Made by a program: the position numbers and the translations under genes. DNA of 27,540 nucleotides from IMG/VR virus record IMGVR_UViG_2529292834_000005, positions 1-27,540 of that record; one strand, given 5' to 3'. Under the pieces are notes generated by a model. That model saw only the letters and a list, made by a program, of their open reading frames with translations, was not told where the DNA came from and searched no databases. Positions 7,466 to 19,989 of the stretch are shown in pieces; the first letter of the stretch is position 1; each line of letters starts with the position of its first letter. The DNA is from a virus (taxonomy: Duplodnaviria; Heunggongvirae; Uroviricota; Caudoviricetes).

Positions 7466-7736
7466 GTTTCAGTTCCTCTATCCGGTGCTGGCGGCTGCGC
7501 AGCAGTGCGGTGGTCTGTTCCGCTGCCGCATAAAGCCGCGCCTGTTCCCGGCTGTTGGTTTCGGTCAGAATGGACAGGCCGATCAACTGACTGTTTTTCT
7601 TTGCCAGTTCCTGCGTTTTGCTTTTCAGCGCCGTGCCCTGCGTCTCAATGGTGTGACTGGCATTGTTAAGCCGCCACGACTGCCAGCCCAGCGCAACAAG
7701 AACCAGCGCCAGCCCTAACACCAGTGCGCGATTCAT
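7308..7736 (-). CDS. lysB: Inner-membrane spanin (LysB / Rz-like)
   Basis: 142 aa; N-terminal TM helix (LVLGLALVLVALGW) then coiled-coil-like charged region; position after lysA. Confidence 0.8.
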   Translation of the reverse strand: MNRALVLGLALVLVALGWQSWRLNNASHTIETQGTALKSKTQELAKKNSQLIGLSILTETNSREQARLYAAAEQTTALLRSRQHRIEELKRENEDLRSWADTPLPADIIRLRERPALAGGAAYREWLSQSDAVPSGKVSAAQ

Positions 7737-8107
7737 TCCCGCAATGCCTTTAATTCATCCTTGATTGCTAAGCCAATGGCAACGGTAGATACATAAACCA
7801 GCCCCGTCAGTTTCCACCCGGCAAGCAACATCACAAAGGCAACAGCCAGGCGCAGATACCAAGGGAGAGTAATTGCGTCCATCACACTTAATACCCTGCC
7901 CAGCAGGAATCTGACCTTTAGCCGGTCATTACCTGTCAGAGTGCAGGAATAAAGCCCGGTAAAGCAGACCAGAGAAAACGAGGCAAACTCAAACCACATG
8001 ATCAGCGCCAGCGGGAAAAGCGCATGGGTGGCAGGAAAAATCACATCAACCATCACAAGAAGCGCCAGAACCGAAAGCGGCAGCCAGTAACTTTTTAACC
8101 ATTTCAT
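7733..8107 (-). CDS. lysA: Lysis-timing membrane protein (P2 LysA-like)
   Basis: 124 aa with about four hydrophobic helices; sits between endolysin and spanins. Confidence 0.7.
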   Translation of the reverse strand: MKWLKSYWLPLSVLALLVMVDVIFPATHALFPLALIMWFEFASFSLVCFTGLYSCTLTGNDRLKVRFLLGRVLSVMDAITLPWYLRLAVAFVMLLAGWKLTGLVYVSTVAIGLAIKDELKALRE

Positions 8108-8108
8108 T

Positions 8109-8621
8109 TCAGGACGCTCCTTTTAAGCACCAGGCCATTTCCCGCGCGCGGCGGTTCTCCAGACCTTTATTTTTCACACCGTTAACGTAAATCCAGCGCG
8201 GTAGCTGGTTACATGCCTGCCACCACTGCTGACGATTGATATATGACACCATGGTTGACCTGCAGATCGCGCCGGTCCCCACATTGAAACCAATACTCAC
8301 CAGCGCATCGTAGACATGTTGCGGGGGCTTAACCGTCAGGCAGGCATCCAGCCTTTTTTCAGTCAGCAACACATTGTTTATTAACCCCTGCGCCGCCTGC
8401 CGTTCCGTGATAGTTTTCCCCGGCACCACCCCGGATGTATTTCCGATCCCGTCAGTCCAGACACCTGCGCTGCACTGATACGGCTGCAAACGACATCCCT
8501 CGTAATCGGCAATCAGTTTCAGCCCTTCAACGGAGGTTTTGAGCGACTGGAAACCGGGCAGCGTGGCGGCGACAGCCAGCACAGCCCCGACAAGGCAGCG
8601 CTTAACGATTGAAGGATTCAT
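8109..8621 (-). CDS. K: Endolysin, phage lysozyme with N-terminal signal-anchor (P2 gpK-like)
   Basis: Start at ATG 8621 (MNPSIVKRCLVGAVLAVAATL...); E-x8-D-x5-T catalytic pattern in YEGCRLQPYQCSAGVWTDGIGNT; alternative start at 8645 possible. Confidence 0.85.
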   Translation of the reverse strand: MNPSIVKRCLVGAVLAVAATLPGFQSLKTSVEGLKLIADYEGCRLQPYQCSAGVWTDGIGNTSGVVPGKTITERQAAQGLINNVLLTEKRLDACLTVKPPQHVYDALVSIGFNVGTGAICRSTMVSYINRQQWWQACNQLPRWIYVNGVKNKGLENRRAREMAWCLKGAS

Positions 8622-12292: not shown

Positions 12293-14059
12293 ATGAACAC
12301 GACACTGACCCCCGCAGACCTCGATCCCCGTCGGCAGGCCATGCTGCTGTACTTTCAGGGATACCGCGTAGCCCGCATTGCTGAAATGCTGGGCGAAAAA
12401 GTTGCAACCGTTCACAGCTGGAAAAAACGCGACAAGTGGGGCGACTATGGGCCGCTGGATCAGATGCAGCTCACCACCGCCGCACGTTACTGCCAGCTCA
12501 TCATGAAGGAGCAGAAAGAAGGGAAAGACTTCAAGGAAATTGACCTGCTGGCGCGCCAGTCAGAGCGCCACGCCCGGATCGGCAAATTTAACGACGGCGG
12601 GAACGAAGCTGATTTAAACCCGAAAGTAGCCAACCGTAACAAAGGTCCGCGCAGGCAGCCGGAAAAGAACGTTTTCTCCGACGAACAGATCGAAAAGCTG
12701 GAAGAAGTCTTCCACGCCTCAATGTTCGACTATCAGCGTCACTGGTTTGAAGCAGGAAAAACAAACCGCATCCGTAATCTGCTCAAGTCGCGCCAGATTG
12801 GCGCCACGTTTTATTTTGCCCGTGAAGCATTGATTGACGCCCTGCTGACCGGACGCAACCAGATTTTCCTTTCTGCCAGTAAGGCACAGGCGCACGTATT
12901 TAAGCAGTACATCATCGACTTTGCCAAAGAAGTTGAGGTGGAGCTGAAAGGCGATCCTATGGTGCTACCTAATGGCGCAGCATTGTACTTTCTCGGCACC
13001 AACGCCCGTACGGCGCAGAGCTACCACGGCAACCTGTATCTGGATGAATATTTCTGGATACCGAAATTCCAGGAGCTGCGCAAAGTTGCCTCCGGTATGG
13101 CCATTCACAAGAAATGGCGACAAACCTACTTTTCCACGCCGTCCAGCCTGACCCATAGTGCCTATCCGTTCTGGTCCGGTGCGCTGTTTAACCGGGGCCG
13201 CGCCAAAGCGGACAAGGTGGATATTGACCTGACCCACAGCAATCTTGCGCGTGGCCTGCTCTGCCCTGACGGGCAGTACCGCCAGATCGTCACCGTGGAG
13301 GATGCAGTGCGCGGCGGCTGTAACCTGTTCGACCTCGACCAGTTGCGCATGGAGTACAGCCCGGACGAATACCAGAACCTGCTGATGTGCGAATTTATTG
13401 ACGATCTGGCGTCAGTATTCCCGCTCAGCGAACTGCAGGCGTGCATGGGGGACAGTTGGGAAATCTGGACCGATTTTCAGGCGCTGGCGCTGCGCCCGTT
13501 TGGCTGGCGCGAAGTCTGGATCGGATACGACCCGGCGAAAGGCACGCAGAACGGTGACAGCGCCGGGTGCGTGGTGGTGGCACCGCCAACCGTGCCGGGC
13601 GGCAAGTTCCGCATTCTGGAGCGACACCAGTGGCGCGGGATGGACTTCCGCGCCCAGGCTGACGCCATTAAAAAACTAACGCAGCAGTACAACGTGACCT
13701 ATATCGGCATCGACTCGACCGGCGTCGGTCACGGTGTCTACGAGAACGTGAAAGCGTTCTTTCCTGCCGTGCGGGAGTTTGTCTACAACCCCAACGTTAA
13801 AAACGCCCTGGTACTCAAGGCCTACGACATTATCAGCCACCGCCGTCTGGAGTTTGACGCCGGGCATACCGACATTGCGCAATCATTTATGGCAATCCGT
13901 CGCGCCACCACCGCCAGCGGCAACCGCCCGACCTATGAAGCCACCCGCAGCGAAGAAGCCAGCCACGCCGATCTGGCCTGGGCAACAATGCACGCACTAT
14001 TTAACGAACCGCTGCAGGGCGAATCCGCCAATACCAGCAATATTGTGGAGATTTTTTGA
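12293..14059 (+). CDS. P: Terminase large (ATPase) subunit (P2 gpP-like)
   Basis: 588 aa; divergent from O and followed by the portal gene with a 4-bp overlap, as in P2. Confidence 0.9.
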   Translation: MNTTLTPADLDPRRQAMLLYFQGYRVARIAEMLGEKVATVHSWKKRDKWGDYGPLDQMQLTTAARYCQLIMKEQKEGKDFKEIDLLARQSERHARIGKFNDGGNEADLNPKVANRNKGPRRQPEKNVFSDEQIEKLEEVFHASMFDYQRHWFEAGKTNRIRNLLKSRQIGATFYFAREALIDALLTGRNQIFLSASKAQAHVFKQYIIDFAKEVEVELKGDPMVLPNGAALYFLGTNARTAQSYHGNLYLDEYFWIPKFQELRKVASGMAIHKKWRQTYFSTPSSLTHSAYPFWSGALFNRGRAKADKVDIDLTHSNLARGLLCPDGQYRQIVTVEDAVRGGCNLFDLDQLRMEYSPDEYQNLLMCEFIDDLASVFPLSELQACMGDSWEIWTDFQALALRPFGWREVWIGYDPAKGTQNGDSAGCVVVAPPTVPGGKFRILERHQWRGMDFRAQADAIKKLTQQYNVTYIGIDSTGVGHGVYENVKAFFPAVREFVYNPNVKNALVLKAYDIISHRRLEFDAGHTDIAQSFMAIRRATTASGNRPTYEATRSEEASHADLAWATMHALFNEPLQGESANTSNIVEIF

Positions 14060-15099
14060 TGAGTGAATACGACGCTCTGAGCAACACCGCGCCAGTGCAG
14101 GAGGCCGAACAGCAGAAGAATACAACTCACGCCGAAGCGTTCAGCTTTGGCGATCCGATCCCGGTACTGGACCGCCGCGAACTGCTGGACTATGTGGAAT
14201 GCGTACAGATGGACAGATGGTATGAACCTCCGGTGAGTTTTGACGGACTGGCACGGACCTATCGTGCCGCCGTGCATCACAGCTCGCCGATTGCCGTCAA
14301 ACGTAACATCCTGACCAGCACCTTTATCCCACATCCGCTGCTGAGCCAGCAGGCGTTCAGCCGCTTTGTGCAGGACTATCTGGTGTTCGGTAACGCCTAT
14401 CTGGAGAAGCGCACCAACCGCCTTGGAGGTATTCTGTCGCTGGAACCGTCGCTGGCGAAATATACCCGCCGCGGCGTGGATCTTGATACTTACTGGTTTG
14501 TGCAGTACGGCATGACCACGCAGCCCTACGAATTCACTAAAGGCAGCATCTTTCACCTGATGGAGCCGGATTTAAACCAGGAGATTTACGGCTTGCCGGA
14601 ATATCTGTCAGCCATTCCCTCCGCCCTGCTAAACGAGTCCGCTACGCTGTTCCGCCGCAAGTATTACATCAACGGCAGCCACGCGGGCTTCATCATGTAC
14701 ATGACCGACGCCGCACAAAATCAGGAGGACGTGAACAACATCCGCCAGGCGATGAAAAGTGCCAAAGGGCCGGGTAACTTCCGCAACCTGTTTATGTACT
14801 CACCCAACGGGAAAAAGGACGGGATTCAGATCATCCCATTATCAGAGGTGGCGGCTAAAGATGAGTTTCTGAATATCAAGAACGTGAGCCGCGATGACAT
14901 GATGGCAGCACACCGCGTGCCGCCGCAGATGATGGGGATCATGCCCAACAATGTTGGCGGATTTGGGGATGTGGAAAAGGCCAGTTGCGTCTTTGTACGA
15001 AACGAGCTAATGCCATTGCAAAAGCGACTGCAGGAGCTAAACAATTGGTTGGACGAAGAAATAATTCGCTTCGAATCTTATAAATTAAACCTAAATTAA
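14056..15099 (+). CDS. Q: Portal protein (P2 gpQ-like)
   Basis: 347 aa; last gene before the cos region, as in P2. Confidence 0.9.
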   Translation: MMSEYDALSNTAPVQEAEQQKNTTHAEAFSFGDPIPVLDRRELLDYVECVQMDRWYEPPVSFDGLARTYRAAVHHSSPIAVKRNILTSTFIPHPLLSQQAFSRFVQDYLVFGNAYLEKRTNRLGGILSLEPSLAKYTRRGVDLDTYWFVQYGMTTQPYEFTKGSIFHLMEPDLNQEIYGLPEYLSAIPSALLNESATLFRRKYYINGSHAGFIMYMTDAAQNQEDVNNIRQAMKSAKGPGNFRNLFMYSPNGKKDGIQIIPLSEVAAKDEFLNIKNVSRDDMMAAHRVPPQMMGIMPNNVGGFGDVEKASCVFVRNELMPLQKRLQELNNWLDEEIIRFESYKLNLN

Positions 15100-15103
15100 G
15101 CTC

Positions 15104-15135
15104 AAAAAATGCCTGCTACCGCAGGCACTTTGTTT
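15104..15135. terminator. Bidirectional rho-independent terminator between convergent Q and the 97-aa gene
   Basis: Seen: 7-bp stem tgcctgc / gcaggca with loop tacc, A6 on one side and a T-rich run on the other. Confidence 0.7.
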
Positions 15136-15427
15136 ACTCTTTAACAAGTGTAGCCCACACAGAGTCTTCAACCTCTTCAACAACAATATTGATGTTGCAA
15201 ATAACATGGTCTTCACTCTCACGAGTATATCTGAATAGCCTTGTTTTTACTTTCCCACCAAACGACTCACGGCCTTCCTTATTGGTAATGTCGACATAAT
15301 CCCCCACATTCGGAAGCATCAGAAGCGTATTGTCTTCAGAAGAACATCCTACAATATCTCCATCGTCAAGAGGTCGCATGTCCCCTTTACACAGGTATTG
15401 AAAGTCATAGCTGTAGGTAGTTTTCAT
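15134..15427 (-). CDS. Hypothetical 97-aa cargo protein between cos and Q
   Basis: ORF only; acidic, no recognisable motif; no counterpart in the P2 map at this position. Confidence 0.55.
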   Translation of the reverse strand: MKTTYSYDFQYLCKGDMRPLDDGDIVGCSSEDNTLLMLPNVGDYVDITNKEGRESFGGKVKTRLFRYTRESEDHVICNINIVVEEVEDSVWATLVKE

Positions 15428-15599
15428 TATTTATCCTTTGAAGGTAACAGTGCTTACATATGTTGGTTCAGTGGCTTAACATGGAGTTAAGGCTCTGAAA
15501 TGAGCATCATTTGAATGTAACAATATATTGCAACATGGACTCGAAAACTTCAAATCAATCTTCCCGACAGAGAGGTGTATTACTTTTACTACCTGTTAC

Positions 15600-15630
15600 G
15601 CGCGCTCGTATCCCCGCCACGCCTGCCCGC
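15600..15630. other. Putative cos site (cohesive-end region)
   Basis: Minus-strand reading GGCGTGGCGGGGA matches the start of the P2/186 19-nt cohesive end as I recall it (P2 GGCGAGGCGGGGAAAGCAC); lies between Q and the A-side genes, as in P2. Confidence 0.5.
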
Positions 15631-15740
15631 TTTTTGTAGCGATTTTCATGCAGGTGCATGACATAAGCAAAAGCCCACCAGAACTGGCGGGCCTCAGCAA
15701 AAACGATCCTCAAACGATCATGCATATTCATGCGGCATAG

Positions 15741-16523
15741 TCATGCAGTGACTTTGGTCTGGTCAGGCGTAGAAAAATCTTCGAAAGATTTATAAGTTTC
15801 AGTATCAAATATTGAAATACTCTCAACCTGATCCATTGGGATTACATGCCTAAAATGATTTAAGTTCAGTGGAGTTGAGTCTGCTGTAATATTTTTGCTA
15901 AGGTAAAGTTCATAGTAACGATGCTGCTCATGGTATCTGAGCGTATCTTTATCACGATAACCACTAATGTATGGTATGAGAGCCAGATGCTGAGTTTCCT
16001 GATGCTCCATCCGAGGAGCAGCTACGTAACCAATGTAAACTTTTCTGGATTTTAGCGTAACAAAGATGAGCTTACCTTCATCTATAGCCTGAACTAACAG
16101 TGACTCAATTCCATCTTGAGCTGCCATCTCGCGATATGCAGATTGACGAATCTCTTCGTTTTCTATTGCTCTTCGCGCATTGTTACCTTGGTCATAAGCA
16201 ATAAACACCGCAAGCAGCATAGACAACACAAAGAACAATGGGTAAGACATTATCTTTACGTCTGTGAGCCATGAATAAAAGTCCACATGTAACTTAGGCC
16301 AAAAATAGCCAAAAACATTGATAACTGAGCTTATAACTAGCAAACTAACGAATGTAACAGCCATCAGAGTAAACCCCTGAATAGCAAACTTACAACCATG
16401 CATAGCTACATAAAAATAGGAATTCCAACCATTACTTCTTGCTTGCCTGATGCGGGACTGGTAATGATTTTCGGTGTACCAGAACCCGCAAACCAGGACG
16501 ACCATGATAACTAAGGGTCCCAT
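15741..16523 (-). CDS. Membrane protein, 260 aa, 3-4 N-terminal TM helices plus about 150-aa soluble domain; hotspot cargo
   Basis: Hydrophobic segments at about residues 3-17, 46-75 and 91-110; starts 3 bp after the 66-aa gene; occupies the slot of P2 tin/old next to cos. Confidence 0.75.
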   Translation of the reverse strand: MGPLVIMVVLVCGFWYTENHYQSRIRQARSNGWNSYFYVAMHGCKFAIQGFTLMAVTFVSLLVISSVINVFGYFWPKLHVDFYSWLTDVKIMSYPLFFVLSMLLAVFIAYDQGNNARRAIENEEIRQSAYREMAAQDGIESLLVQAIDEGKLIFVTLKSRKVYIGYVAAPRMEHQETQHLALIPYISGYRDKDTLRYHEQHRYYELYLSKNITADSTPLNLNHFRHVIPMDQVESISIFDTETYKSFEDFSTPDQTKVTA

Positions 16524-16526
16524 TCC

Positions 16527-16727
16527 TCATCCTTGTCGTTTTGCAGCCAATTCTTCCATTCTGGCACGCATTGATTCACGTACCTGCTTATTGTTCATGT
16601 TTAAGGTCGCCGCACCATTAGCATCTGTGATAATTTTACTATTATCAGACTGTTGCACATCCTGACGGATAACATCCTGCATAATCTTACCCGGTGCAGA
16701 GAGAACTTTGCGCAGAAGTTCAGACAT
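16527..16727 (-). CDS. Small hydrophilic protein, 66 aa, first gene of two-gene cargo cassette
   Basis: Start placed at ATG 16727 with strong RBS AAGGAGG; the ORF-track N-terminal extension is not supported by an RBS. Confidence 0.6.
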   Translation of the reverse strand: MSELLRKVLSAPGKIMQDVIRQDVQQSDNSKIITDANGAATLNMNNKQVRESMRARMEELAAKRQG

Positions 16728-16946
16728 ATTTTCCTCCTTATGCCTCAAACGCCACGGATTGTGGTGCATGGAGGCTGTCATCTTATAATTATAGGACAAC
16801 AAAAATACGAAACTATTCGAAGAGTGCTACGTATTAACCTATTTACATATCACCCTGCAACCAATTTATCCATAACTAACGCCTCGCACGGCTCGTTGCT
16901 CAACCTTGCGAACGGTAAAAACCAGTTTTATCGTCCGCAACGTTCC

Positions 16947-17180
16947 CTAATGTAACCAGCTGTCGTCCTCCCAGACCTGCTGCATGATTTCCATCACTCG
17001 CTTTTTGTCTTCATCCAGTTTTAACCCGCTCAGTTCAACACCATTGGCGCTGCCCTTACGGATACGAATTGCTGTTTTGGGATACAGAGGGCGCAAATTA
17101 CGGTAAAGCTCGGATTCAAGGGCTTCCAGTGTGACCTGGCTAATCTTCAGCTCTTTATCGATCATTATTTCAATGCGCAT
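16947..17180 (-). CDS. DinI-family protein
   Basis: 77 aa, MRIEIMIDKELK...VMEIMQQVWEDDSWLH resembles E. coli DinI from memory (MRIEVTIAK...ETWESADDW). Confidence 0.75.
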   Translation of the reverse strand: MRIEIMIDKELKISQVTLEALESELYRNLRPLYPKTAIRIRKGSANGVELSGLKLDEDKKRVMEIMQQVWEDDSWLH

Positions 17181-17191
17181 ACAGATTCCCT

Positions 17192-17380
17192 TTAACTGGT
17201 AACGTCCATTGACCGGCTGTATTCATGGCTGCGAATTTTCGCCATCAACTCGTCAGTCAGTTCAGACACCCACTGGATAGCCAGCCGCTTTTCTTCATCG
17301 CTGCACTCACTAGCCGCTACAAGCTTGATAAAAAAATCAATACGCTGGAGCTTCAATGACTCCAAAAGATAGTCCTGCAT
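17192..17380 (-). CDS. Small SOS-regulated protein, 62 aa, possible Tum-like antirepressor
   Basis: Start at ATG 17380 with RBS AGGAGG; LexA box about 50 bp upstream; in phage 186 the LexA-controlled tum gene sits at this end of the genome and is DinI-related (recollection). Confidence 0.5.
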   Translation of the reverse strand: MQDYLLESLKLQRIDFFIKLVAASECSDEEKRLAIQWVSELTDELMAKIRSHEYSRSMDVTS

Positions 17381-17427
17381 CTTCCCTCCTATCATTACAC
17401 GGATACACAACAACTGTATATATACCC

Positions 17428-17447
17428 ACTGTTTATATGAACAGTAT
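17428..17447. promoter_or_regulatory. LexA (SOS) box
   Basis: Seen: aCTGTttatatgaACAGta, a perfect CTGT-N8-ACAG with AT-rich spacer, in the promoter region of the 62-aa/DinI-like genes. Confidence 0.65.
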
Positions 17448-17538
17448 AATAGGAACAAAAAAATGTAAAACTGTTTTTTGTCAGTTAATTGGATACACTG
17501 ACACCAGTCAATAAAGCACGAAATGTTAAACAGCAGTC

Positions 17539-19989
17539 TTAGTACCACTGACGCCATTTGTCATCTTCCTGCAGCCGCTGGTTACGGTAAAAAATACGTA
17601 AACCGGCCCCGGATGGAATGCTGCCACCACGCAGAAGCAAATCAATCTCCGATGCACTACCTTCAAACCCTCTGGCAGTCAATTCCGCTTCAAGCTGCAG
17701 ACGCTGCTGCTCCGAAATACTCTGTTTGTAGGCTTTTTTCCGCTTCGGTTTTACCAGTCTCAACCTGGCTGTCAGCTCCCGGCGTTCCTTCTGGCCCATA
17801 TTGTATAGGTAATCCTGCAGTTCCTGCTCATTCATGGTTTTAATATCGGGCAGATCTCCCCCTGTATGGTTCAATTTTTCAACAGGGGGACAGTTATTGC
17901 CACGAGTCCAAGGGGCGCAAGCGCCCTGGTCGGCTGCCGCCTCCTGAATATCAACGGCCTTACGAACCTTTTTCCACTTCATCGCATGCGTGCAAATCTT
18001 GCCCTCTGCAATCGGGGACCAGATGCCATAGATACGGATACCGTGATCGCCGTAGGCGCTCGGTTCGTCGTTAAGCTCATAAGCAGTGCGGACAAGGTGA
18101 TGTTTGCGGGGAACCAGTACACCGCCCTGCTTCATGATGTAGGTGGCAAAGCAACCCGCATCTGCAGCCGCCAGTACCGCATCCAGACGTGGATTATCCA
18201 GTACAGGCGCACCCGCTTTGCGTTCGCCCTGTACTCTCGCCGCCTGACCAGCCAGCAAGCGCAGCTCGCGGTATGCCTGGCGCCCCGGAATACCAAAGAA
18301 ACGAAATTGCTGGACACGGTGCAGTGACGCCCAGGTGCTGACATGCTCGGCGCTGTCACGCAGTGATCTGCCGGTTTCTTTACTGATTTCTTTAGCCAGC
18401 CCGCGCCCGTCGATGTTCTTACTGATGTATTTGGCGATGTAGCTGGTCGGCGTGCCCTTGCGCGGGTTGATTAGCTCAGACTTGAAGCGCGGCCCGGTAT
18501 TGGTACCCAGCTCCTCGCGGTCTTCACGGATGGCAAACTTACGCAGCAGTGCGGTGATGGAACGGCGGTCTTTTTTGCGCATGAAGCACAGAAGATGCCA
18601 GTGCACGGTGCCGTCATGGTGCGGCTCTGCAACGCGAACGCCATACCAGCGCAGCCCGGCCTTGTGCATGGCCTTGCGGAAAGCGGCGAACGTATCAACC
18701 AGGTAGTCACTGCTCTGCCGGACAGTGGCACTGGTCCACTTCGGATTAGGTCTGCCGTTGTTGAGGGTTGCGTGGAAGCGTGACGGGCAGGTGATGGTAT
18801 AAAACACCGCGCAGTCTCCGCGCATTTCCGCGATCAGTTCCAGCCCTTTAACACAGGCCATCATTTCATTACGGCGGTGCGCCGGGTTGCTGTTGCTGGC
18901 GTTCACCACATCTTCCATGTCCAGCGTGTCACCGTCTTCGTTGACCAGCTCATGCGAGCGGAAGAACTCCAGCGATTTGCGGCGCTGCTCGCGTTTGTGG
19001 ATCACAGCTTCATAGCTGACATACGGGGACGCTTTCTTGTTGACCAGGCAGACGGCGCGCAGTTGCTCCTCCCGCCACTCACAGCGCATCTGCCACAATT
19101 TGCGATACCACCAGTCCGCACACAGCATGCGCGCCAGCGATGGTGGGATCAGTTCATAAGGCACTAGCTTGCGGCGACGCTTTTTGCGGCGCAACTTCTC
19201 AAAGGCAGGCGGGATGACCTCAAGGCGCATGGCTTCTGCAGCAACCCTTTCCCATGACTGGCGGATTTCTTCTGGTTTAACATCGTCACTGACAAACAGA
19301 TCACCGCAGGCCGCATCAAGACACATGCTCATATGTGCCGCAACCAGCGTGGACAGACGTTTGACCTGCTCCTGATTCATTTCAGGCAGTACCAGCAGCC
19401 CCTCCAGGCCGTCCTGGCTCGCCATGAACCGGAAAGACGCAGACACCTGGCTGTCACGCACGCGTTCCAGCCGCTCAAGACACGGTCTGATTGTTTCGCG
19501 CAGATAGCGGGAATAAGCTTTAGCCCTGCCCAGGCTATGGAAGTATTTAATTCGCTCCAGCAGAGGCTTGCTGATATGGGCAGGCATGGCGCTTACATCG
19601 GCAATAATCACCAAATCGGGATTAACGCGCTGCTGTTCGCGGGCCATTTTGGCATGGCTAATCAGCCGATCCTGCTCCATTTCACGCTGGACAGGATCGC
19701 GGGATTCATTGAAGAAATAACGTTCCCAAACCTTATCACTCAGCGCCTCACGGCGCAGATGCTCCCGCTCGTTATCCGCAGCGTACAGAGTGATGAGGTT
19801 TGAAAGCGCAGACTCCGGCGCAACTTCCGCCGGGTCCAGATACGGGTTAACCGCTTGTTTGGGCAAATTCCACGAATAAGGCCCGGCAACATTCTCAACG
19901 CTACCGGGATTTTCAGTTACAAACGTGGCTGCAAGACGGCCTGTACTGATTTCCGTCACTCGCAGACTCCCGCATAAACACTGCTGCAC
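17539..19989 (-). CDS. A: Replication initiation endonuclease (P2 gpA-like rolling-circle initiator)
   Basis: 816-aa ORF; contains [14 protein letters not shown] (active-site tyrosine motif type); true start may be internal, since the ORF overlaps the upstream gene by 34 bp. Confidence 0.85.

What the first reader, a model, noticed from the sequence alone, without database searches (positions are those of the whole stretch)
15134..15427. Extra 97-aa gene between cos and the portal gene Q
In P2 the portal gene lies within a short distance of cos; here a 97-aa acidic protein of unknown family sits convergent to Q, separated by a bidirectional terminator, with about 170 bp between its start and the cos-like site. 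Genes next to cos are at the physical ends of the packaged genome and are frequent sites of accessory insertions.
Basis: inference. Interest (0 to 1): 0.45.

Follow-up and report, generated by a model that had tools for sequence, protein, structure and literature searches.

The report
Small cargo gene beside prophage cos
The 97-residue gene between the DNA-packaging site (cos) and the portal gene of this P2-like prophage is a real, conserved, self-contained accessory gene of unknown function, but it sits in a cargo slot that most related prophages also fill and that is already published as an anti-phage defence hotspot, so it is an ordinary occupant of a known slot.

Summary
A 97-aa acidic ORF (15134-15427, minus strand) lies between portal gene Q and a unique cos core (15605-15623). 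It converges on Q across a shared hairpin terminator. P2 and 186 have only about 170 bp of non-coding DNA there. The gene is real: dN/dS is about 0.15, it matches PHROG 12676 over its full length, and about 195 clusters at 50% identity exist.

The position is not unusual. In 59 of 67 related viral contigs the Q-cos interval holds 1-3 genes, nearly all in this orientation. 14 of 20 representative cargo proteins match known defence models (AbiU, retrons, Septu and others). Published work defines the whole gpA-gpQ interval, which spans cos, as the P2 defence hotspot.

ORF97 has no Pfam, NCBIfam or PADLOC match. Its confident all-beta model has no credible fold relative. Homologs occur at unrelated positions in other temperate phages and in chromosomes, so a role in packaging is unlikely.

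Best guess: a stand-alone moron encoding a small soluble binding protein, expressed from the prophage and acting in phage-phage conflict. Exclusion or defence is slightly favoured over counter-defence. Its function is inferred, not shown. It is a new member of a known kind, of modest interest.

The parts
15134..15427 (-). ORF97 coding sequence: 97 aa, pI 4.55, predicted all-beta soluble protein, PHROG 12676
15434..15438 (-). Shine-Dalgarno AAGGA, 6 nt upstream of the ATG
   Evidence: read from the sequence
15104..15133 (.). Hairpin terminator shared by ORF97 and portal Q. The stem is at 15110-15127, with a U-run on the minus strand at 15104-15109. It occupies the position of tQ/tW in P2/186.
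15506..15533 (-). Candidate sigma-70 promoter TTGCAA-16 nt-AATGAT, matching 8 of 12 consensus positions. It is conserved with a 17-nt spacer in the E. coli homolog. Inferred only; it is below the scan threshold.
   Evidence: not reported
15605..15623 (-). cos core (19-nt cohesive-end sequence) GGCGTGGCGGGGATACGAG, oriented towards Q as in P2 and 186
15590..15747 (.). Conserved cos block. It is the only part of 14900-15800 that matches at megablast sensitivity in the 45 deposited phage records that gave a hit.
15665..15695 (-). Intrinsic terminator (-21.7 kcal/mol, followed by UUUUGCUU) that ends the A-side cargo operon before cos and insulates ORF97 from it
14056..15099 (+). Portal gene Q, which bounds the slot on one side

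Best explanation
ORF97 is a self-contained accessory gene (a moron). It has its own upstream region, a good ribosome-binding site and a strong terminator. It occupies the Q-proximal half of the cos-adjacent gpA-gpQ cargo and defence hotspot of a 186/Fels-2-type P2-like prophage. It encodes a small, acidic, soluble, all-beta protein of an uncharacterised family.

Shown here:
- It is a real gene under purifying selection.
- It is transcriptionally insulated from both neighbours.
- The slot is hypervariable and rich in defence genes.
- The family moves between unrelated positions in different temperate phages and chromosomes.

Inferred:
- It is expressed from the prophage from its own weak sigma-70 promoter.
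- It works alone by stoichiometric binding rather than catalysis.
- Its target is a conserved cellular or phage component.
- It gives the lysogen an advantage in phage-phage conflict. Exclusion of, or defence against, competing phages is slightly favoured over counter-defence.
- It has no role in cos recognition or packaging.
For: - Real gene: (dN/dS about 0.15).
- Insulated unit: terminators on both sides, with a low-GC cargo tract spanning about 15000-17500 at 39-47% GC, against 53-62% in the flanking core genes.
- Hypervariable slot with one orientation: 59 of 67 relatives hold cargo, in about 60 protein clusters, almost all transcribed from cos towards Q.
- Defence content of the slot: 14 of 20 representative proteins hit PADLOC models, including AbiU, retron RTs, PtuA, an RM methyltransferase and PDC families. 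CFT073 carries a HEPN/Hypoth_Ymh gene in the same slot.
- Literature: gpA-gpQ is a validated defence hotspot (PMC9122126). 19% of P2-like prophages have only unknown genes at the main defence locus, and 6 of 8 such unknown loci tested in the satellite P4 protected against phages (PMC13586616).
- Independent module: the same ORF97 is combined with different A-side cargo.
- Moron-like spread: homologs lie in the lambdoid early region, between terminase and portal, after gpU, and near an integrase in an Agrobacterium prophage.
- No catalytic or membrane features: no Pfam, NCBIfam or PADLOC hit, no TM segment, and a confident all-beta model with pLDDT 86.
Against: - There is no experimental or homology-based functional evidence at all.
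- No known defence protein is this small, soluble and solitary.
- The promoter is only an 8-of-12 match and was not called by the scan.
- Members sit at a conserved chromosomal site, as tandem paralogs, in Rhizomicrobium, next to what look like housekeeping genes (CinA-like, SpoU methylase). This points to a cellular role rather than a phage-conflict role.
- Some homologs lie inside late structural operons. That does not fit expression in the lysogen.
- Machine-learning predictions cited in PMC13586616 flag only 15-32% of unknown P2 proteins as antiviral.
Confidence: 0.5

Rival explanations
1. ORF97 is a counter-defence or inhibitor protein. It would be a small acidic binder, such as a sponge, mimic or enzyme inhibitor, that protects the P2-like phage or its lysogen from a host or rival defence system or another host factor. 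This is analogous in logic to Ocr, anti-CRISPRs, Tad/Acb sponges or DinI.
For: - It is 97 aa, acidic (pI 4.55; family median 4.8), soluble and has no enzymatic motif.
- It is a single gene needing no partner.
- It occurs in many phage types at many positions, including structural operons, as anti-defence genes do.
- It lies in the same cargo tract as DinI, another small acidic protein family that prophages have co-opted from the cell.
Against: - There is no downstream aca-like regulator.
- Anti-defence genes were detected in only 28 of 1,511 P2-like prophages, although that search finds only known families.
- Chromosomal tandem copies in Rhizomicrobium are atypical for anti-defence genes.
- There is no fold similarity to any known inhibitor.
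Confidence: 0.25
2. ORF97 is the conserved first gene of two-gene modules, acting as sensor, regulator or antidote for a variable downstream effector. In this window it would be an orphan that has lost its partner.
For: - Where the P2 slot holds a second gene, ORF97 is always the cos-proximal one. The second gene differs between loci: a 298-aa protein, a 228-233-aa protein with 3-4 TM segments, or a 385-aa protein.
- Outside P2-like phages a co-directional gene often follows within 16-180 bp, and it looks effector-like: TM proteins, a HEPN-like Rx4H protein, an FRG domain.
- In several genomes both genes share atypically low GC3.
Against: - The downstream genes share no detectable homology.
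- Close co-directional neighbours are common by chance in islands.
- 5 of 12 partners with TM segments is not a clear enrichment.
- Most P2-like loci, including this window, have ORF97 alone with its own terminator.
- The weak YefM antitoxin hit (E 0.12) disappears with the broader profile.
Confidence: 0.12
3. ORF97 is a modulator of host physiology, a cellular small-protein family co-opted by prophages, with no direct role in phage conflict.
For: - The family is broad: about 195 clusters at 50% identity, across Proteobacteria and cyanobacteria.
- Rhizomicrobium has a conserved chromosomal locus with tandem paralogs.
- Polar residues are strongly conserved (Q10, R18, D43, R63, N80), as is the extreme C-terminus LIKE, which suggests a conserved partner.
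Against: - Enterobacterial members are confined to prophage hotspots with atypical GC.
- No neighbourhood association links the gene to any pathway.
Confidence: 0.1
4. ORF97 is a packaging or cos accessory factor, for example a cos-binding or terminase/portal-associated protein.
For: - It is immediately adjacent to cos and to the portal gene.
- One distant homolog lies between the terminase and portal genes of an unrelated phage.
Against: - It is absent from P2, 186 and 8 of 67 close relatives with the same portal and cos.
- In most relatives unrelated defence genes take its place.
- Homologs occur far from any cos or portal gene.
- It has no DNA-binding signature.
Confidence: 0.03

Closest known systems
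P2 cos-adjacent gpA-gpQ defence hotspot (Rousset et al. 2022, PMC9122126; Moura de Sousa et al. 2026, PMC13586616), whose classic cargo is P2 old and tin
   Same: ORF97 lies between the replication endonuclease gpA and the portal gpQ, next to cos. Its tract has low GC, and unrelated cargo takes its place in otherwise syntenic prophages. Neighbouring occupants of the same slot are recognised defence systems.
   Different: P2's own old and tin lie on the A side of cos, whereas ORF97 is on the Q side. ORF97 matches no catalogued defence protein, and at 97 aa and soluble it is far smaller than typical systems. Anti-phage activity is untested.
Phage morons (promoter-gene-terminator units, as defined for lambdoid phages)
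   Same: It is a single gene bracketed by terminators, with atypical GC. It is inserted between conserved genes and is found at different positions in different phages.
   Different: The promoter is only inferred. Expression in the lysogen has not been shown.
DinI-like small acidic proteins carried in the same hotspot
   Same: Both are about 80-100 aa, acidic, and belong to stand-alone families found in chromosomes and co-opted by P2-like and lambdoid prophages. Both are likely to act by binding.
   Different: There is no sequence or fold similarity. The target of ORF97 is unknown, whereas DinI binds RecA filaments.
PHROG 12676
   Same: Full-length match, residues 1-97 of 97, E 2e-51.
   Different: The PHROG has no functional annotation, so membership says nothing about function.

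Membership tests
Cargo of the P2 gpA-gpQ cos-adjacent hotspot | Located between the replication endonuclease gpA and the portal gpQ of a P2-like prophage | tested here: met
   gpA is at 17539-19989(-), Q at 14056-15099(+), and ORF97 lies between them.
Cargo of the P2 gpA-gpQ cos-adjacent hotspot | Replaced by unrelated genes in otherwise syntenic relatives | tested here: met
   59 of 67 relatives hold cargo, in about 60 clusters. CFT073 carries a HEPN/Ymh gene in the same slot.
Cargo of the P2 gpA-gpQ cos-adjacent hotspot | Confers anti-phage protection | not testable with these tools
   This needs plaque assays. There is no PADLOC hit.
Moron | Own terminator and insulation from flanking operons | tested here: met
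   Hairpins at 15110-15127 and 15665-15695, z-scores -4.9 and -3.4.
Moron | Own promoter | tested here: inconclusive
   The best candidate, TTGCAA-16-AATGAT, matches 8 of 12 positions and was not called by the scan. A related sublineage has a conserved TTGACT-17-GATATT.
Known anti-phage defence protein families (PADLOC-DB v2) | Significant HMM match | tested here: not met
   0 families at E<=1.
PHROG 12676 | Full-length HMM match | tested here: met
   E 2.2e-51, residues 1-97 of 97.
Cradle-loop barrels with a GD box (AbrB/MazE swapped-hairpin, double-psi beta-barrel) | Detectable profile or fold similarity | tested here: not met
Nudix hydrolases | Nudix fold and Nudix box GX5EX7REUXEEXGU | tested here: not met
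Type II antitoxins (YefM/Phd) | Significant sequence similarity and an adjacent toxin gene | tested here: not met
   E 0.12 with profile A1, lost with A2. No downstream gene exists in the window.
P2-type packaging components | Conserved wherever the same cos, terminase and portal occur | tested here: not met
   Absent from P2, 186 and most relatives.

The most novel reading that the evidence does not exclude
The ORF97 family (about 95 aa, acidic, all-beta, no detectable fold relative) is a new kind of stand-alone phage-conflict factor. It could be the smallest soluble single-protein exclusion or defence determinant known from the P2 hotspot. It could instead be a new broad-range inhibitor of a defence system. 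A variant of this reading is that it is a conserved leader gene that arms interchangeable downstream effectors.
Probability: 0.3. Interest if true: 0.6.

Novelty: new member of a known kind. Interest (0 to 1): 0.3.

Why it matters
If ORF97 has a conflict phenotype, it would add a very small, easily studied protein family to the defence or counter-defence catalogue. The family is widespread in Proteobacteria and has a possibly new fold.

The survey also refines a known hotspot. In this 186/Fels-2-like lineage most cargo, including recognisable defence systems, sits on the portal side of cos in a single orientation. It is not on the gpA side, where P2's old and tin lie. That matters for how hotspot boundaries and recombination junctions are modelled.

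As it stands, the finding mainly confirms published knowledge.

Tried and rejected
- Pfam, NCBIfam and PADLOC scans of ORF97 gave no hit.
- tblastn against 50,697 deposited phage genomes gave no hit. The family is known only from prophages and metagenomes.
- The Nudix idea is rejected: there is no Nudix box and the scores are low.
- The GD-box, AbrB/MazE or double-psi-barrel idea came from a marginal profile hit. It is rejected by hhalign and by the lack of any barrel among the fold hits.
- The YefM antitoxin hint is not reproducible with the broader profile.
- I tested for a conserved downstream partner. The downstream genes are mutually unrelated.
- I tested for functional linkage to GmrSD/HEPN. 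The shared neighbourhood in lambdoid prophages is explained by block transfer from a P2-like hotspot, including a decayed cos and a portal remnant. It is therefore not independent evidence.
- Literature searches for the E. coli accession and the PHROG id found nothing.
- Scanning genome contigs with the broad alignment A2 failed for lack of a conserved stretch, so A1 was used instead.

Full report
**1. What is there**

The window is a P2-like prophage of the 186/Fels-2 type, read in the orientation opposite to the P2 map.
- The large terminase gene is at 12293-14059(+).
- The portal gene Q is at 14056-15099(+) (Pfam Phage_portal).
- The replication endonuclease gpA is at 17539-19989(-).
- The window is identical to contig APXF01000152.1 of assembly GCA_000356225.2.

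The flagged ORF runs from 15427 down to 15134 on the minus strand.
- It is 97 aa with an ATG start and an AAGGA ribosome-binding site 6 nt upstream.
- Its pI is 4.55.

ORF97 and Q converge 34 bp apart on a GC-rich hairpin at 15110-15127. The hairpin folds at -20 kcal/mol followed by UUUUUUGA on the ORF97 strand. On the Q strand it folds at -13.5 kcal/mol followed by a U-rich tail. It sits where P2 and 186 annotate tQ and tW.

**2. cos**

GGCGTGGCGGGGATACGAG occurs once in the window, at 15605-15623(-), and never in 100 shuffles.
- Its first 13 nt equal the annotated 19-nt cohesive end of 186. P2 differs at one of those positions.
- Its orientation relative to Q is the same as in both phages.
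- The block 15590-15747 is the only part of 14900-15800 that matches at megablast sensitivity in the 45 deposited phage records that gave a hit.

In P2 and 186 the portal stop codon lies 187 and 196 bp from the genome end, with only a terminator between. Here the distance is 524 bp. The extra gene is therefore real, and its start is 178 bp from cos.

**3. Is it a gene?**

Yes.
- It matches PHROG 12676 end to end, E 2e-51.
- 28 clusters at 90% identity cover 48-98% identity at full length. They come from E. coli, Salmonella, Citrobacter, Klebsiella, Serratia, Pantoea, Kosakonia and Agrobacterium.
- A profile search of 1.8 billion representatives finds 195 clusters at E<=1e-3. Almost all are stand-alone proteins of 90-100 aa.
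- dN/dS against homologs is 0.07-0.17.
- Conserved positions include Q10, R18-P19, P39-x-x-G-D43, R63, F65, Y67, C77 and N80-I-V. The extreme C-terminus L-I/V-K-E is conserved in the closer homologs.

**4. Transcriptional anatomy**

Upstream of cos on the gpA side there is a strong minus-strand terminator at 15665-15695: -21.7 kcal/mol followed by UUUUGCUU. It ends the A-side cargo operon, which comprises a 62-aa protein, DinI, a 66-aa protein and a 260-aa membrane protein.

ORF97 is thus insulated on both sides and needs its own promoter within the 178 bp after cos.
- The consensus scan reported none.
- The best candidate is TTGCAA-16 nt-AATGAT at 15533-15506, matching 8 of 12 positions. It is conserved with a 17-nt spacer in the E. 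coli homolog.
- A different sublineage (Klebsiella, Kosakonia, L149, L150) has a conserved TTGACT-17-GATATT.
- The promoter is therefore inferred, not shown.

GC falls from 53-62% in the core genes to 39-47% across 15000-17500.

**5. Is the position unusual?**

No. I fetched the 80 IMG/VR contigs that best match this portal, out of at least 600 matches. I measured the distance from the portal stop to the cos core.
- The cos core was recognisable in 67 contigs.
- Only 8 of those have a short, empty interval of 152-260 bp, as P2 and 186 do.
- The other 59 carry 1-3 ORFs there.
- The cargo falls into about 60 protein clusters.
- Almost all of it is transcribed from cos towards Q, as ORF97 is.
- Some contigs are near-duplicates, so these counts are approximate.

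Twenty representative cargo proteins were scanned against PADLOC, and 14 match defence models. The matches are AbiU, retron RT II-A and RT-Toprim I-C, Septu PtuA, a type II methyltransferase, NsnA/PD-T4-2_A, DpdB-like, Hp2 and several PDC candidate families.

E. coli CFT073 has a 383-aa Hypoth_Ymh/HEPN protein in the same slot, next to the same A-side 260-aa gene found in this window.

Rousset et al. 2022 define the P2 hotspot as everything between gpA and gpQ, adjacent to cos. Their Table S5A lists the CFT073 locus including that Q-side gene. The 2026 NAR study uses the same definition.

So the gene is an ordinary occupant of a published hotspot. What the literature does not separate is the side of cos. 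In this lineage the Q side is the main cargo site.

**6. Distribution of ORF97**

- Only 10 of 5,426 complete E. coli genomes carry it at megablast sensitivity, always as Q|ORF97|cos.
- No deposited phage genome carries it.
- The identical or near-identical gene is combined with different A-side cargo. Partners include the 260-aa/66-aa pair, MTase+HEPN+GmrSD, Rv2179c-like+HipA+HIRAN, and DinI plus an 86-aa protein. It is therefore an independent module.
- In Klebsiella, Kosakonia and other contigs a second, unrelated gene lies between ORF97 and Q. This is a 298-aa protein, a 228-233-aa protein with 3-4 TM segments, or a 385-aa protein. ORF97 is always the cos-proximal gene.
- Outside P2-like phages, homologs sit in four other settings: the early region of a Serratia lambdoid prophage, near the integrase of an Agrobacterium prophage, between the terminase and portal genes of an unrelated phage, and after a gpU tail gene.
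- In Rhizomicrobium and related Alphaproteobacteria the family occupies a conserved chromosomal site, often as tandem paralogs. The neighbouring genes look like housekeeping genes: CinA-like, TPR and SpoU methylase.

This scatter is the signature of a moron-type accessory gene. It argues strongly against a role in cos recognition or packaging.

**7. A false lead resolved**

ORF97 lies next to GmrSD+HEPN both in a P2-like hotspot (L135) and in lambdoid prophages (L048, L143, L144, L147). The lambdoid copies are a block transfer.
- They share 74% nucleotide identity with L135 over 2.8 kb.
- The homology continues through a decayed cos (GTGTAGCGGACCTACAAG) and ORF97.
- It ends in a frameshifted remnant of the last ~65 codons of a P2-type portal.

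The linkage is therefore by descent and does not indicate shared function.

**8. Structure and homology**

AlphaFold2 with the 27-sequence alignment gives a confident model (pLDDT 86, pTM 0.76). The model has five beta-strands, two of them long, and a short C-terminal helix.

No library gave a credible match.
- Foldseek against PDB gave E>=0.18.
- Foldseek against BFVD gave a best E of 1e-3, to unnamed phage proteins.
- afdb50 was unavailable.

A broader profile hits designed double-psi beta-barrels at E 0.02, through an RPxDxG...VGDYVxI motif that resembles a GD box. However, hhalign against AbrB and MazE gives probabilities below 1%. I treat the motif as unassigned. No TM segment or signal peptide is evident.

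**9. Mechanism**

Shown:
- ORF97 is a real, selected gene.
- It is an insulated single-gene unit.
- It lies in a hypervariable, defence-rich slot with one orientation.
- It is mobile among phage types.

Inferred: it is expressed on its own in the lysogen and acts as a small soluble binder.

The priors come from the slot and the literature. 14 of 20 neighbouring occupants are defence-like. 6 of 8 unknown loci tested in the P4 hotspot protected against phages. Only 15-32% of unknown P2 proteins are predicted to be antiviral. On that basis I place about 0.5 on a role in phage-phage conflict, with exclusion or defence slightly ahead of counter-defence.

The small size, acidity and lack of catalytic features keep counter-defence or inhibition as the main rival (0.25). 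The recurrent arrangement of ORF97 followed by a variable, effector-like gene keeps a two-gene leader or antidote model alive (0.12). In that model the window copy would be an orphan. The conserved Rhizomicrobium locus supports a co-opted cellular modulator (0.10). A packaging role is close to excluded (0.03).

**10. Verdict**

ORF97 is a new, uncharacterised member of a known kind of cargo. Interest is modest (0.3). It would rise to about 0.6 if a defence or anti-defence phenotype were demonstrated for this very small protein with no identifiable fold relative.

Noticed in passing
L048 5590-6530 (also L143, L144, L147), compared with L135 1-3526: Lambdoid prophages of Klebsiella carry a block copied from a P2-like hotspot. 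It runs DNA methylase, HEPN, GmrSD, a decayed cos core, an ORF97 homolog, then a frameshifted remnant of the last ~65 codons of a P2-type portal gene. This is a transfer between phage families of a cargo block that spans cos.
   Followed up: yes
L052-L131, interval from portal stop to cos: In this 186/Fels-2-like lineage 59 of 67 relatives carry their hotspot cargo on the portal side of cos, nearly always transcribed from cos towards Q. 14 of 20 representative proteins hit PADLOC models. P2's own old and tin lie on the other side of cos. The papers I read do not distinguish the two sides.
   Followed up: partly
window 15741-16523(-) and 16527-16802(-): The A-side cargo is a 260-aa protein with N-terminal membrane segments (phrog_3630) plus a protein of about 66 aa (phrog_22451). 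Neither has a Pfam or PADLOC hit. The same pair occurs in E. coli CFT073 next to a HEPN/Hypoth_Ymh gene, and is listed as 'hypothetical' in Table S5A of PMC9122126. It is a candidate uncharacterised two-gene system.
   Followed up: partly
window 15665-15695(-): A strong intrinsic terminator lies about 45 bp before the cos core, inside the conserved cos block. It stops read-through from the early/cargo operon across cos in the circular or prophage form.
   Followed up: yes
L024-L042 around 7600-8300; L162 1361-1910: The ORF97 family occurs as tandem paralogs (about 91 and 98 aa) at a conserved chromosomal site in Rhizomicrobium and related Alphaproteobacteria, downstream of a CinA-like gene. 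It also occurs as a tandem pair in one viral contig.
   Followed up: partly
L159 3564-7588; L161 4492-5291: Distant ORF97 homologs are inserted between the terminase and portal genes of an unrelated phage, and directly after a P2 gpU-like tail gene in another. That places them inside late structural operons.
   Followed up: partly
L001 6947-9502: In E. coli O6:H16 M9682-C1 the A-side cargo next to the ORF97 homolog is broken up by two IS1 copies, and the prophage is truncated: only a late control D fragment lies next to the terminase gene.
   Followed up: no
L157 3981-4985: In one viral contig a DUF4238 protein lies 10 bp upstream of an ORF97 homolog on the same strand. I did not examine whether the two form an operon or whether the pairing recurs.
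   Followed up: no
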